Below, in pieces: positions 41,726 through 59,173 of a DNA stretch of 64,000 nucleotides (its first letter is position 1; each line of letters begins with the position of its first letter). A model generated the notes under the pieces. It was not told the DNA's origin. It searched no databases and was given only the letters and a program-made list of their open reading frames with translations. Source of the stretch: an uncultured virus (IMG/VR IMGVR_UViG_3300042898_003498) (lineage: Duplodnaviria > Heunggongvirae > Uroviricota > Caudoviricetes); the IMG/VR virus record IMGVR_UViG_3300042898_003498; one strand, written 5' to 3'. A program made the translations under genes and the position numbers.

Positions 41726-41754
41726 ATTATACAATCTTATGTAGAACTTGTCAA
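41726..41754 (-). promoter_or_regulatory. internal sigma70 promoter
   Basis: TTGACA-17-TATAAT perfect. Confidence 0.8.
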
Positions 41755-41942: not shown

Positions 41943-42025
41943 TGGTGCTGCCTATAGGAATTGAACCTATGTTCTCTTTCGAGCCGCCTTATCAAGACGG
42001 TGCCTAACCATTCGGCCAAAGCAGC
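41943..42025 (-). tRNA. tRNA(GAT, Ile anticodon) with variable arm
   Basis: loop TTGATAA; CTC-GAAA-GAG arm. Confidence 0.8.
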
Positions 42026-42032
42026 ATTAACT

Positions 42033-42121
42033 TGGTGGAGCCTGAAGGAATCGAACCTCTTGCCAGCCACCCCACTTGACAATGGCTACCGGGTTACAGC
42101 CGGCAATGGGGAACAAGCTCC
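42033..42121 (-). tRNA. D-armless tRNA-Tyr(GTA)-like gene
   Basis: GCCGG-CTGTAAC-CCGGT; 10-nt D-replacement; long V arm. Confidence 0.68.
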
Positions 42122-42123
42122 AA

Positions 42124-42198
42124 TATTCTAAAACACACTATCATCTACGATGCGACACTTGATTCAGAGTCAAGCCGTTTTAAGTATGTTTTAGAATA
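42124..42198 (-). ncRNA. long-terminal-stem element (family 2)
   Basis: TATTCTAAAACATACT/AGTGTGTTTTAGAATA. Confidence 0.55.
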
Positions 42199-42360
42199 CC
42201 CTCTATTGCTAGAGGATATGATAGGGTTAATACCCTACCCAGTTATTTGTACTAGTGTGTTATCGCCACACGTTCATCCAACTGTCCGCCCGTTCAAAAC
42301 ATGTTTTAAGTGCGTTCCCCGGGCCACGTTCCCGTACTATATTGCACTGTGCGATTCTAA
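42191..42360 (-). ncRNA. unassigned structured leader RNA
   Basis: TTAGAAT/ATTCTAA closing; TAGGGT/ACCCTA, CCTCTA-GCAA-TAGAGG hairpins. Confidence 0.4.
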
Positions 42361-42518
42361 CGATCTCCGCAGAGAGTCTCTCGCTTTCTATCAGCTTCGT
42401 AATACTGTCTAGCACGTTGTATCTTAGCATCGAGCAATTTTTTAAATTGCTCTTTGTTTAGAGTATGCTGTCTAGTAAACTCAGCTTGTCTTTCTAACTG
42501 TTGATCTCTTTCAATCAT
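42357..42518 (-). CDS. small hypothetical protein (53 aa, MIERDQQLERQAEFT...)
   Basis: translated by hand; AAGGA SD; first ORF after the attenuator terminator. Confidence 0.55.
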   Translation of the reverse strand: MIERDQQLERQAEFTRQHTLNKEQFKKLLDAKIQRARQYYEADRKRETLCGDR

Positions 42519-42530
42519 TTTTCCTTTCGG

Positions 42531-42564
42531 AAAACAAAAACCCCAGGGTGTTTAGTCCTGGGGT
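42531..42564 (-). terminator. intrinsic terminator in the tRNA-array leader
   Basis: ACCCCAGG-9nt-CCTGGGGT followed by TTTTGTTTT. Confidence 0.8.
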
Positions 42565-42584
42565 CCTTTTGAAGTTTGTTTGGA

Positions 42585-42752
42585 TTAGATTCTTGGAATC
42601 TTCTCCCCTTCTCGGGACCCCGGGCTAATATAGCCCTCCGGTGTGCGATCTGAATGTGACAGACTATTAATCGCTAACCAAGACGCAGGCATAAAGCCCA
42701 CTACTGTGGCTATCGTATTAAACTGCTGTTTACATTTCGATTGCATTGTCAT
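42585..42752 (-). CDS. putative attenuator leader peptide (55 aa)
   Basis: MTMQSKCKQQFNTIATVVGFMPASWLAINSLSHSDRTPEGYISPGSREGEKIPRI; between promoter and terminator; contains antiterminator GGGGTCC. Confidence 0.6.
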   Translation of the reverse strand: MTMQSKCKQQFNTIATVVGFMPASWLAINSLSHSDRTPEGYISPGSREGEKIPRI

Positions 42753-42808
42753 TTCGTTTTCTCTTAAAACCTTGTTACATAAACTGCCTTATTGCAGTGT
42801 ATGTGTTA

Positions 42809-42925
42809 ATTATACAGTTATTTAGTTCTGTTGTCAACCTCTTTTTAATCTTTTGACTAAAAAGTTTTTAACAACTTCTCTTCCTAACTTGTCTCTATTG
42901 TATAGTGTTTATTTAGCATTGTCAA
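42809..42925 (-). promoter_or_regulatory. tandem sigma70 promoters heading the tRNA array
   Basis: TTGACA-17-TATAAT 42809-42837; TTGACA-17-TACAAT 42897-42925; both spacers contain CTAAATA. Confidence 0.8.
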
Positions 42926-42963
42926 TAAGTATGTGGTTAAAATGCCATAATTTTGGCAAATTT

Positions 42964-57109: not shown

Positions 57110-59173
57110 TCACTTTGATGTTGCCTTGTAGGTACCATCCCAGTCACTAGGCAAATCTCTTGAGCGCATGTCAGCAATACGCTCTTGCCACAATGCATAA
57201 TACTCATCCATCTTGCCATCGAACTCTCCTACTAGATCTTGACAGATAGTAATAGCCTTGTCCCATTCCTGCTTGCGATAATGTGCCAACATTAAATCGT
57301 GCATTTCACGAGCCATGATCCAATCTGCTGCTACTGTAACATCGGGATTGTAAAACACTGTGTAGATCGTAACTCCGATGCTCTTGCCTTTAACAGCAAT
57401 AGTATCTAGTTCAATAGTAAAGTATTCATCACCTACTCGAGCCTGTGTAAATTCGCTAATGATGATTAATACACCGTAGTTCTTAGTTTGGCTTTCTAAA
57501 CGAGCGGCGAGACTTACGCTGTCACCGAGTACGTCATAACCAAAGCGATCCTTCGATCCAATGTTACCGATTAGTGTAGGGCCTGTGTTAATACCTAATC
57601 CGCAGCCAACTAAGGGCTTGCCTTCTTTGGTAAGTTCAATGTTAAACAGTTCAACAGCATGTAGCATTTCAAGTCCGGTGCGCACAGCGGCCAGCACATG
57701 ATCTGGATCTTGTTCTTCTTGAATTGGAGCACCATGAACGTGCAATGACGCATCACCGATGAACTTGATTAAACAACCGTTGTTGCGTAAGATGGGCTCT
57801 GCAATAGCAGTCATGTAACGATTCATAGTATGAGTAAATGCCACAACATCATCGCCGTAGGTTTCGCCCAGGCCAGTGAAGTTACGCATGTCACTCATAA
57901 TGATACTCAAGTCTTTCTTTTCGCCTCCTAGTTTAATAAAGCTAGGATCTTTTTGTAGTCGTTCAACAATTATGGGATTTACATATCCACCGAACTGTTT
58001 CTTGATTTGTTGCTTTTGGAAGAACTCATCAAGGAATTTAACCACATAGGCGTGTAATCCAACCAATACAACACCGCAGACAAAAGCAGTAGTATCAAAC
58101 AAAATACCGTAGCCATTATAAGCCCATATACTACCACCGATGCTAACCAAAACAAGACCAACCATAAATCCAATACCAACATACATCCACCTTGTTAAAA
58201 ATAGTAACAATAAGCCTGCTGCTATAATAGCTGCCACTTCTAAGTCATCTGCATATCCGGGTCGTTGTATTGCAGTATCCGATAACAGGGTACCTAATAA
58301 ACTAGCCTGCATGTCCTGCGGCCAAATCTCGCCACGAGCAGTGGCCACCGGCTGAACTAGACCTGCTGCACTTAATCCCACAATAACAACTTCACTGTTA
58401 AAGTCTTTGGGCAATTTAGCAAGACTGTGTTGCTTAGGTTGCTGACTCCAATCAATCCATACACGACTCAATGGATCTACGTTGATGCGATTCAGTTTAG
58501 GAATACGCACTGCCTCGACGCCCATATCTGTGATCTTAGCCTGTATCCTAGTGTCACCTGCTGCTAGTCTAAGTGTTTCTAATCCAATAGCAGGATGCAC
58601 AGTTCCACTGCTTAGTATTAACAATGGCATACGACGAACAACACCATCTATTTCAGGAAAGGTATTTACAATGCCCGTGCCGGCTGCACGTTCTTCCAGC
58701 ATAGGGACGTTAGCGATAATGCCTGGATATTCTACCAGACTACCTTGCGGATCGACACCTACGATCTGCACAGGACTTCCGAACGTCTTATTCTTCCCTG
58801 TGGTGCTGGCAACCTGTGGCAGCACTGCTGGATATTTTTCTAATGCTTGGGCCAGTTTATTATCTTGACCAAACCTATCTGCTTCAGGCATAAGGATATT
58901 GAGCACAACAAGGCCAGCGTTTCTGTCATATAGGTCTTTAATAATGTCAGCATATAGTCCTCGAGGAAATGGGAATTGTCCATACTTGTCTAATGCAGCC
59001 TCATCTATATTGACAGTATGTACAGGGATGTCTTGTGTAGGTTGGCTAGTGATCAGTTGATCAAAATAGCGTAGTCTAACTGATTCCACAAATGCAGGAT
59101 CTGCAAATCTAACACCTGCTACTAATAGTAATGTGATTAGGGCCAACCACGGGCTTAATAAAATCTTCTTCAT
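57110..59173 (-). CDS. CHASE2-domain adenylate/guanylate cyclase
   Basis: DGVVRR (CHASE2), 3 TM, SDMRNFT, KFIGDA, GINTG, LAARLE. Confidence 0.92.
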   Translation of the reverse strand: MKKILLSPWLALITLLLVAGVRFADPAFVESVRLRYFDQLITSQPTQDIPVHTVNIDEAALDKYGQFPFPRGLYADIIKDLYDRNAGLVVLNILMPEADRFGQDNKLAQALEKYPAVLPQVASTTGKNKTFGSPVQIVGVDPQGSLVEYPGIIANVPMLEERAAGTGIVNTFPEIDGVVRRMPLLILSSGTVHPAIGLETLRLAAGDTRIQAKITDMGVEAVRIPKLNRINVDPLSRVWIDWSQQPKQHSLAKLPKDFNSEVVIVGLSAAGLVQPVATARGEIWPQDMQASLLGTLLSDTAIQRPGYADDLEVAAIIAAGLLLLFLTRWMYVGIGFMVGLVLVSIGGSIWAYNGYGILFDTTAFVCGVVLVGLHAYVVKFLDEFFQKQQIKKQFGGYVNPIIVERLQKDPSFIKLGGEKKDLSIIMSDMRNFTGLGETYGDDVVAFTHTMNRYMTAIAEPILRNNGCLIKFIGDASLHVHGAPIQEEQDPDHVLAAVRTGLEMLHAVELFNIELTKEGKPLVGCGLGINTGPTLIGNIGSKDRFGYDVLGDSVSLAARLESQTKNYGVLIIISEFTQARVGDEYFTIELDTIAVKGKSIGVTIYTVFYNPDVTVAADWIMAREMHDLMLAHYRKQEWDKAITICQDLVGEFDGKMDEYYALWQERIADMRSRDLPSDWDGTYKATSK

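What the first reader, a model, noticed from the sequence alone, without database searches (positions are those of the whole stretch)
42531..42925. Leader-peptide attenuator at the head of the tRNA array: possible general translation-stress sensor
Seen: two consensus sigma70 promoters, then a 55-codon ORF (42585-42752), then a strong intrinsic terminator (42531-42564) before the first tRNA. Codons 44-46 (CCCGGGGTCC) are complementary to the terminator 5-prime arm GGACCCCAGG, giving mutually exclusive structures. The peptide has no run of one residue; it contains all 20 amino acids, all six Ser codons and all three Ile codons (39 distinct codons, only modestly above chance). Known: this is the layout of ribosome-mediated attenuation. 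Inference: stalling from loss of any tRNA could free the antiterminator and switch on the array's first segment.
Basis: partly seen in the sequence, partly recalled or inferred. Interest (0 to 1): 0.75.

Follow-up and report, generated by a model that had tools for sequence, protein, structure and literature searches.

The report
All-amino-acid leader switch before phage tRNAs
In front of its tRNA genes this uncultured lake phage, like over a hundred relatives, carries a tiny translated gene that contains all 20 amino acids and is wired to a stop/go transcription hairpin, so it probably makes more tRNA whenever ribosomes read any codon slowly.

Summary
On the minus strand lie two near-consensus promoters, a 55-codon ORF (42752-42585), a stem inside the ORF (42621-42615) that pairs with the 5' half of an intrinsic terminator (42564-42531), then a small gene and the 48-tRNA array. 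I found the same layout in 132 of 135 distinct IMG/VR loci. The ORF shows coding-type substitution. Both alternative helices covary at the shared base. Same-strand tRNAs follow in 70 of 73 loci with at least 1000 nt of downstream sequence.

The strongest result is composition. 105 of 132 leaders (median 48 codons) hold all 20 amino acids, against 4.2% of matched control windows and 23.7±4.0 sequences after column shuffling. Naked nascent RNA folds into the antiterminator in 131 of 132 loci, and the stop codon sits about 9 nt past that stem.

The likely logic is that prompt translation lets the terminator form, and a delayed ribosome gives read-through. This is inferred, not shown. The closest working analogue is the mycobacterial whiB7 uORF attenuator. 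Five literature searches found nothing on tRNA genes controlled this way. Earlier notes of this scan describe the same kind of element on other DNA.

The parts
42897..42925 (-). upstream promoter, TTGACA-17-TACAAT
   Evidence: 11 of 12 matches; tandem strong promoters also seen in relatives L001 and L002
42809..42837 (-). proximal promoter, TTGACA-17-TATAAT
   Evidence: 12 of 12 matches
42585..42752 (-). leader ORF, 55 codons + TAA, contains all 20 amino acids and 39 distinct codons
   Evidence: a homologous ORF is present in 132 of 135 distinct loci, with third-position-biased substitution
42608..42630 (-). 5' strands of the antiterminator, inside the ORF: P1 GGGGTCC 42621-42615 (codons 44-46), P2 GAAG 42611-42608, and a window-specific extension TTAGCC 42630-42625
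   Evidence: covariation
42582..42606 (-). variable hairpin P3 enclosed by the antiterminator; holds the stop codon (42587-42585)
   Evidence: fold of the window; the stop lies a median 9 nt after the last paired base of the 5' strands across the family
42571..42574 (-). P2 3' strand CTTC
   Evidence: all 4 P2 pairs change on both sides in A5
42560..42566 (-). P1 3' strand GGACCCC; bases 42564-42560 are shared with the terminator 5' arm
42531..42564 (-). intrinsic terminator: arms 42564-42557 and 42547-42540, loop 42556-42548, T tract 42540-42531
   Evidence: variant stems covary in loci found by another motif
42357..42518 (-). ORF2, 53 codons, AGGAA-type ribosome site 6 nt after the T tract; first gene behind the switch
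   Evidence: an ORF of at least 35 codons in this position in 86 of 125 loci; similarity judged by eye, and a simple motif matched only 28; no family hit
42190..42340 (-). conserved non-coding block between ORF2 and the tRNA-like gene
   Evidence: blastn cover in 10-25 of 107 loci; no Rfam match beyond a chance-level one
42036..42122 (-). tRNA-like gene with encoded CCA and a GUA (Tyr) anticodon loop; not called by ARAGORN
   Evidence: (26.7 bits against tRNA-Sec, gathering score 47)
41943..42025 (-). first called tRNA (Ile-gat) of the 48-gene array, which runs to 30758

Best explanation
This is a ribosome-mediated transcription attenuator whose sensor is a short 'pangram' ORF, one that contains every amino acid and nearly every decoding class. 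Strong promoters start a transcript. As RNA polymerase moves on, a stem inside the end of the ORF (GGGGTCC plus GAAG) pairs with GGACCCC/CTTC just ahead of the terminator. That pairing removes 5 of the terminator's 8 stem bases, so polymerase reads on into ORF2, a conserved RNA block and the tRNA array. If a ribosome translates the leader promptly, it unwinds this stem and then sits on the stop codon about 9 nt past it. The terminator then folds and transcription stops. A ribosome delayed at any of the first ~39 codons, through lack of any usable aminoacyl-tRNA or through general translation damage, leaves the antiterminator intact and raises tRNA transcription. The outcome is feedback control of the phage's own tRNA supply. 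Shown by sequence comparison: the coding frame, both helices and their competition, the amino-acid completeness, and the link to tRNA arrays. Inferred: that the ORF is translated, the timing of ribosome against polymerase, and the response itself.
For: That gave 135 distinct loci, and 132 have an ATG ORF (median 48 codons, TAA stop in 123) ending 20-50 nt before the GGACCCC strand.

Coding: single-base codon differences at positions 1/2/3 are 1159/1145/3322. The same interval is stop-free in the other two frames in 9 and 0 of 132 loci.

Antiterminator: each locus's own stem pairs with its own arm at -18.2 kcal/mol, against -15.8 across loci and -8.4 for shuffled sequence; 0 of 2000 permutations reach the observed total. 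A pairing-independent table gives A:T 65, G:C 52, G:T 6 and 3 other. In A5, 98.7% of P1 cells pair and 5 of 7 pairs change on both sides; the covariation score is 0.349 against 0.193±0.009 (0 of 500 shuffles). GGGTCC is read in two frames (67 and 58 loci), so it is kept as RNA and not as peptide.

Terminator: 100% of cells pair, and the shared base pairs as C-G 46, U-G 26, U-A 25.

Default state: with the 3' arm not yet transcribed, the antiterminator is the MFE fold in 131 of 132 loci, and there is no consistent upstream protector.

Pangram: 105 of 132 leaders have all 20 amino acids and 23 have 19. Controls reach all 20 in 274 of 6600 windows. Decoding classes covered: 28.7 of 32 against 22.6±2.4. 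Column shuffling gives 23.7±4.0 all-20 sequences (maximum 37). Cys is single-copy in 109 leaders but spread over at least 8 alignment columns. Random draws from the leaders' own composition give 6.7±2.4. 92 of 132 already have all 20 before the stem. The window's leader samples 29 of the phage's 34 anticodons; 1.2% of controls reach 29.

Context: same-strand tRNAs lie downstream in 70 of 73 loci.
Against: Nothing here shows translation, termination or any response. All support is comparative and by predicted folds.

At equilibrium the window's own full-length leader folds as the terminator, as do 35 of 132 family members. The default state therefore rests on co-transcriptional kinetics.

Ribosome sites are weak: a core Shine-Dalgarno 4-mer occurs in only 16 of 132 loci, and 31 have a -10-like box 5-16 nt before the ATG.

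The peptide is under purifying selection and keeps W and DRTPE at fixed positions. That could mean a peptide-specific role.

Codons at least 13 nt upstream of the stem hold all 20 amino acids in only 21 of 132 loci.

Five of 34 phage anticodons are not sampled by the window's leader.

Promoters inside the array bypass the switch for later tRNAs.

Confidence: 0.7

Rival explanations
1. Arrest-peptide sensor. The conserved W...DRTPE peptide stalls the ribosome in response to one specific signal (a metabolite, a phage protein or a host protein), as TnaC or SecM do, and amino-acid completeness is secondary.
For: W sits in one alignment column in 111 of 112 single-copy cases and D in one column in 64 of 70. 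DRTPE lies directly before the stem. Synonymous changes outnumber non-synonymous ones, 3019 to 2607.
Against: It does not explain why 105 of 132 leaders keep all 20 residues while Cys, Tyr, Phe, Met and His change position. Divergent members lack DRTPE yet keep the ORF, the stem and 19-20 amino acids. No known arrest motif was recognised, though that comparison is from recall only.
Confidence: 0.12
2. An ordinary small phage protein gene with its own terminator. The internal stem serves mRNA stability or translation termination, and the position before tRNAs is just gene order.
For: The ORF is under purifying selection. The leader has no family hit in PHROGs or Pfam, so a protein function cannot be excluded. 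RNA-library contigs run across the terminator.
Against: The stem and the terminator compete for the same five bases and both covary. The stem is kept in two reading frames. Completeness is far above matched controls. tRNAs follow in 70 of 73 loci.
Confidence: 0.1
3. A non-coding riboswitch or tRNA-binding (T-box-like) leader in which the open frame is incidental.
For: The terminator loop (GAYUAAAMACC-like) stays conserved even in loci found through a different motif. That is unusual for a plain terminator and remains unexplained.
Against: No Rfam family matches 42531-42925 at E up to 1. The frame is open in 132 of 135 loci at 35% median peptide identity, with a third-position bias, while the other frames are closed.
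Confidence: 0.04

Closest known systems
whiB7 / wblC uORF transcription attenuator of mycobacteria and other Actinobacteria (PMC10274678; abstract and the section on uORF composition read)
   Same: A translated upstream ORF is coupled to a terminator/antiterminator. Stalling anywhere in the uORF gives read-through. Which amino-acid shortages are sensed is set by the uORF's composition; the M. smegmatis uORF has every residue but Cys. Loss of the start codon raises basal expression, so untranslated RNA reads through, as predicted here.
   Different: It is not homologous (no Rfam hit). The regulated unit here is a phage tRNA array plus a small ORF, not a transcription factor. The whiB7 uORF is Ala-enriched and often incomplete; these leaders are not Ala-enriched (5.5% against 6.0%) and are kept complete.
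Leader-peptide attenuators of enterobacterial amino-acid operons (trpL, hisL, leuL, pheL; multivalent thrL, ilvL); textbook knowledge, recalled
   Same: Promoter, short ORF, alternative stems, an intrinsic terminator, and the stop codon placed so that a terminating ribosome masks the antiterminator strand.
   Different: There is no run of regulatory codons (longest run 2). There is no 1:2 protector hairpin, so no translation should give read-through and not super-attenuation. The output is tRNAs, not biosynthetic enzymes.
Antibiotic-responsive ribosome-mediated attenuators (for example bmrCD, vmlR, lmo0919, found by Term-seq); recalled, not read here
   Same: A short leader ORF reports general translation trouble by switching off a terminator.
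   Different: Those ORFs are very short and respond to drug-stalled ribosomes. They have no completeness constraint and no link to tRNA genes.
T-box riboswitches
   Same: They sense the tRNA state and decide between terminator and antiterminator.
   Different: T-boxes bind one uncharged tRNA directly, have no ORF and control aminoacyl-tRNA synthetase or amino-acid genes. No T-box match was found here.

Membership tests
Leader-peptide (ribosome-mediated) transcription attenuator | Short translated ORF in the 5' leader | tested here: met
   ORF present in 132 of 135 loci. Codon-position differences are 1159/1145/3322. The other frames are open in 9 and 0 of 132. Translation itself was not observed.
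Leader-peptide (ribosome-mediated) transcription attenuator | Intrinsic terminator between the leader ORF and the regulated genes | tested here: met
   8-bp GC-rich stem plus T tract at 42564-42531. 100% of cells pair in A5. A hairpin plus T tract is present in 73 of 106 sequences found through the ORF motif; the remainder appear to be unrelated hits.
Leader-peptide (ribosome-mediated) transcription attenuator | Antiterminator mutually exclusive with the terminator | tested here: met
   P1 shares 42564-42560 with the terminator. Covariation is shown.
Leader-peptide (ribosome-mediated) transcription attenuator | ORF overlaps the switch, so that ribosome position selects the fold | tested here: met
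   The stem starts at about codon 41 of 48. The stop lies a median 9 nt after the stem and 27 nt before the P1 3' strand.
Leader-peptide (ribosome-mediated) transcription attenuator | Cluster of codons for the regulating amino acid | tested here: not met
   No run longer than 2. Instead all 20 amino acids are present in 105 of 132 leaders.
Leader-peptide (ribosome-mediated) transcription attenuator | Upstream protector (1:2) hairpin that gives termination without translation | tested here: not met
   The stem pairs upstream in only 34 of 132 predicted folds, and the antiterminator forms in 131 of 132.
Leader-peptide (ribosome-mediated) transcription attenuator | Read-through responds to charged-tRNA supply | not testable with these tools
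   Needs reporter or in vitro assays.
whiB7/wblC-type uORF attenuator | Controls a WhiB-like regulator in Actinobacteria; uORF enriched in Ala | tested here: not met
   tRNA genes and ORF2 lie downstream. Ala is 5.5% against 6.0% in controls. The element is from a lake phage.
T-box riboswitch | Specifier loop and T-box sequence that bind tRNA | tested here: not met
   No Rfam match in 42531-42925 at E up to 1.

The most novel reading that the evidence does not exclude
The leader is a built-in test message. The phage keeps one copy of every amino acid, and almost every decoding class, in about 40 codons so that loss of any single tRNA species is converted at once into transcription of its own replacement tRNA set. 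The loss could come from host anticodon nucleases, phage-induced decay of host tRNA, or a codon-usage mismatch. This would be a pan-tRNA homeostat and counter-defence device, found only in uncultured lake phages so far.
Probability: 0.45. Interest if true: 0.9.

Novelty: new variant of a known kind. Interest (0 to 1): 0.85.

Why it matters
How phages control their tRNA arrays is largely unknown. Bacterial tRNA genes are known to be controlled at promoters (recalled), and five literature searches here found no report of leader-peptide attenuation of tRNA genes. This element would give a direct, testable link between decoding capacity and tRNA synthesis.

It would also be a natural example of a sensor selected for amino-acid completeness and not for one amino acid. 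It offers a compact reporter of translation stress of about 200 nt. It bears on why large phages carry near-complete tRNA sets. The comparative signal covers over a hundred diverged copies, so designing mutants is straightforward.

Tried and rejected
- Cultured phages: blastn of 1 kb found nothing, and a 170-nt query at E up to 10 gave only chance-level 20-37-nt matches. I therefore found no isolate carrying the element.
- Own assembly: not held. The nearest record, G001 (13.9 kb), has no match.
- Bacterial and archaeal genomes: one hit only, a 6-kb contig binned with a Polynucleobacter MAG. This is too little to name a host.
- MAFFT (A2, A3) and a sequence-only model (R1/A4) misplace the stem by one base in many rows. 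I did not count pairs on them. I used an alignment-free test, an anchor-based table and a structure-model alignment (A5), which leans towards its own structure.
- RNA evidence: only assembled contigs of four freshwater metatranscriptome runs were available. They cover 42016-42939, and one 520-nt contig from a relative bridges the terminator. No contig covers 42940-43700. Contigs show no ends, strand or level, and DNA carry-over is possible, so this supports nothing beyond presence in RNA libraries.
- ORF2: no hit in PHROGs, Pfam or the Atlas.
- Literature: five searches found nothing on leader-peptide control of phage tRNA genes. The library holds open-access papers and bioRxiv only.

Full report
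**Observation.** The tRNA array (48 genes, 42025 down to 30758) is on the minus strand, and so is the finding. Reading that strand, the parts are as follows.
- Two promoters: TTGACA-17-TACAAT at 42925..42897 and TTGACA-17-TATAAT at 42837..42809.
- An ATG ORF of 55 codons, 42752..42585.
- A terminator with arms 42564-42557 and 42547-42540, a 9-nt loop and TTTTTGTTTT (42540-42531). The hairpin alone folds at -17.5 kcal/mol.
- GGGGTCC at 42621-42615 (codons 44-46), which is the exact complement of GGACCCC at 42566-42560. That strand overlaps five bases of the terminator's 5' arm.

The peptide has all 20 amino acids, six Ser codons, three Ile codons and 39 distinct codons. Only 0.37% of control 55-codon windows from this phage's own ORFs reach 39.

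**Relatives.** A search with the peptide found three IMG/VR loci with the same layout, and an alignment-based search found 11. Pooled under a looser definition, these give 135 distinct loci. Cultured phages lack the element. Among 185,579 species genomes there is one hit, a 6-kb contig in a Polynucleobacter MAG. The window's DNA occurs in 18 lake-water metagenome runs at a word share of 0.56 or more. The nearest isolates by one 687-aa protein are Methylophilales phage Melnitz (40% identity) and Pelagibacter phage HTVC008M (36%).

**The ORF is a coding frame.**
- 132 of 135 loci have an ATG ORF: median 48 codons, quartiles 46-49, TAA stop in 123. It ends 20-50 nt (median 27) before the GGACCCC strand.
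- Median pairwise peptide identity is 35%.
- In 639 pairs at 60-98% identity, single-base codon differences fall 1159/1145/3322 on positions 1/2/3.
- The same interval is stop-free in the other two frames in 9 and 0 of 132 loci.
- Ribosome sites are weak. A purine-rich 4-mer occurs in 80 of 132 loci and a core Shine-Dalgarno 4-mer in 16. In 31 loci a -10-like box lies 5-16 nt before the ATG, which suggests near-leaderless messages.

**Two competing helices.**
- Alignment-free test: each locus's own upstream stem pairs with its own terminator flank at a mean of -18.2 kcal/mol. Across loci the mean is -15.8, and for shuffled sequence -8.4. None of 2000 permutations reaches the observed total.
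- All 107 sequences from the first scan show P1 (7 bp) plus P2 (4-5 bp).
- Table anchored on GGGT and independent of pairing (126 of 132 usable, 6 dropped for lack of the anchor): the first pair is A:T 65, G:C 52, G:T 6, other 3. The same arm base pairs in the terminator with G or A accordingly (three-way classes 52/34/31/4/2, other 3).
- On a structure-model alignment (A5, 97 distinct rows), P1 is 98.7% paired and 5 of 7 pairs change on both sides. The covariation score is 0.349 against 0.193±0.009 in shuffles (0 of 500) and 0.024-0.169 when partners are slid. That alignment leans towards its own structure, which is why the two tests above are reported first.
- The terminator is 100% paired, though this set was selected by a pattern that includes it.
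- Loci found through the ORF motif show variant, covarying terminator stems. 73 of 106 such sequences have a hairpin plus T tract; the rest look unrelated.
- GGGTCC is read as Gly-Ser in 67 loci and as Arg-Val in 58, so it is conserved as RNA.

**Default state and geometry.**
- Folding the whole leader with the terminator's 3' arm not yet made gives the antiterminator in 131 of 132 loci.
- The stem is paired upstream in only 34 of 132, so there is no trp-like protector.
- At full length the MFE is the antiterminator in 97 loci and the terminator in 35. The window itself folds as the terminator.
- The stem starts at about codon 41 of 48, and the stop codon lies a median 9 nt beyond its last paired base. 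From established ribosome footprints (about 12-15 nt on each side of the P site, recalled), a terminating ribosome would cover P2 and part of P1 but would not reach the terminator hairpin 27 nt further on.

**The pangram.**
- 105 of 132 leaders contain all 20 amino acids, 23 contain 19, and 4 contain 18 or fewer.
- Same-length windows of this phage's ORFs reach all 20 in 274 of 6600 cases.
- Leaders use 35.7 distinct codons, against 29.1±3.3 in controls.
- They cover 28.7 of 32 decoding classes, against 22.6±2.4.
- Shuffling residues within alignment columns leaves 23.7±4.0 complete sequences (maximum 37).
- Cys is single-copy in 109 leaders but sits in at least 8 different columns, so its presence is kept while its position moves.
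- Random draws from the leaders' own composition give 6.7±2.4 complete sequences.
- Among 41 representatives below 50% identity, 24 are complete and 13 have 19. One 35-residue leader has all 20.
- 92 of 132 are already complete in the roughly 39 codons before the stem. Only 21 are complete if the last 13 nt before the stem are excluded.
- The window's leader samples 29 of the array's 34 anticodons, against 23.5±2.3 in controls; 1.2% of controls reach 29.

**What lies behind the switch.**
- In 70 of 73 loci with at least 1000 nt downstream, same-strand tRNAs follow at a median 434 nt. No locus has tRNAs on the opposite strand. 12 of 73 also have tRNAs upstream.
- In 86 of 125 loci an ORF of at least 35 codons starts within 45 nt of the T tract; those I inspected are 50-58 codons. 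They resemble the window's ORF2 by eye (...HTLTxEQ...ERA...), but a simple motif matched only 28. ORF2 has no hit in PHROGs, Pfam or the Atlas.
- In the window there follow a conserved non-coding block and an uncalled tRNA-like gene with a GUA anticodon loop.
- No promoter-like site lies between 42531 and 42025 on this strand. The next ones are at 41754 and 40451.

**Mechanism.** Prompt translation should lead to termination, and delayed or absent translation to read-through. What the sequences show is listed above. Translation, timing and response are inferred.

**Comparison and novelty.** I read its abstract and its section on uORF composition. In the whiB7 uORF, stalling causes antitermination, composition decides which starvations are sensed, and loss of the start codon raises expression. 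That is the closest working analogue, but the phage element is not a member of that family, and it differs in being kept complete and in driving tRNA genes. Five searches found no paper on such control of phage tRNA genes. Notes of this scan describe the same or similar elements on other DNA. I treat them as leads only.

**Caveats.** Folds are predictions. The conserved W/DRTPE motif and the conserved terminator loop remain unexplained. The RNA contigs add no evidence of ends or levels.

Noticed in passing
window 42036-42122 (-): tRNA-like gene that ARAGORN did not call. It has a 7-bp acceptor stem with encoded CCA, a T arm, a 5-bp stem with loop CUGUAAC (anticodon GUA, Tyr) and a long extra arm, but no ordinary D arm. 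It gives only a weak tRNA-Sec hit (26.7 bits, gathering score 47). It is conserved in about 15-19 relatives. In relatives the first tRNA after the leader is most often Tyr-gta (21 of 73).
   Followed up: partly
window 42190-42340 (-): Conserved non-coding block (CACTTAAAACATG...GAACGGGCGG) between ORF2 and the tRNA-like gene. blastn covers it in 10-25 of 107 loci. No Rfam family matches. It may be a structured RNA or a processing signal.
   Followed up: partly
window 42357-42518 (-): ORF2, 53 codons, with a strong ribosome site 6 nt after the T tract. An ORF of at least 35 codons occupies this position in 86 of 125 loci, and those inspected resemble it. It has no hit in PHROGs, Pfam or the Atlas. 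It is the first product of read-through, and its function is unknown.
   Followed up: partly
L013 1570-1610 and L014 (same sequence): A natural deletion joins the ORF's CCAGGG directly to the terminator's 3' arm. This removes P3 and the P1 3' strand, so it is a variant without the switch.
   Followed up: no
window 42548-42556 (-) and relatives: The terminator loop (GAYUAAAMACC-like, A-rich) is conserved even in loci found through the ORF motif. That is unusual for a plain terminator, and I have no explanation.
   Followed up: partly
window 42800-42930 (-); L001 2730-2960; L002 2700-2960: Two to four tandem near-consensus promoters, each followed by a conserved AGAGACAAGTTAG-like start region.
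   Followed up: no
L255 (contig JBBAKF010000113.1): The only hit among 185,579 species genomes is a 6-kb contig binned with a Polynucleobacter MAG. This is a weak hint at the host at best.
   Followed up: no
window 57110-59173 (-): A 687-aa protein about 40% identical to proteins annotated as adenylate/guanylate cyclase domain in Methylophilales phage Melnitz and about 36% to one in Pelagibacter phage HTVC008M. It places the phage among aquatic T4-like myoviruses.
   Followed up: no
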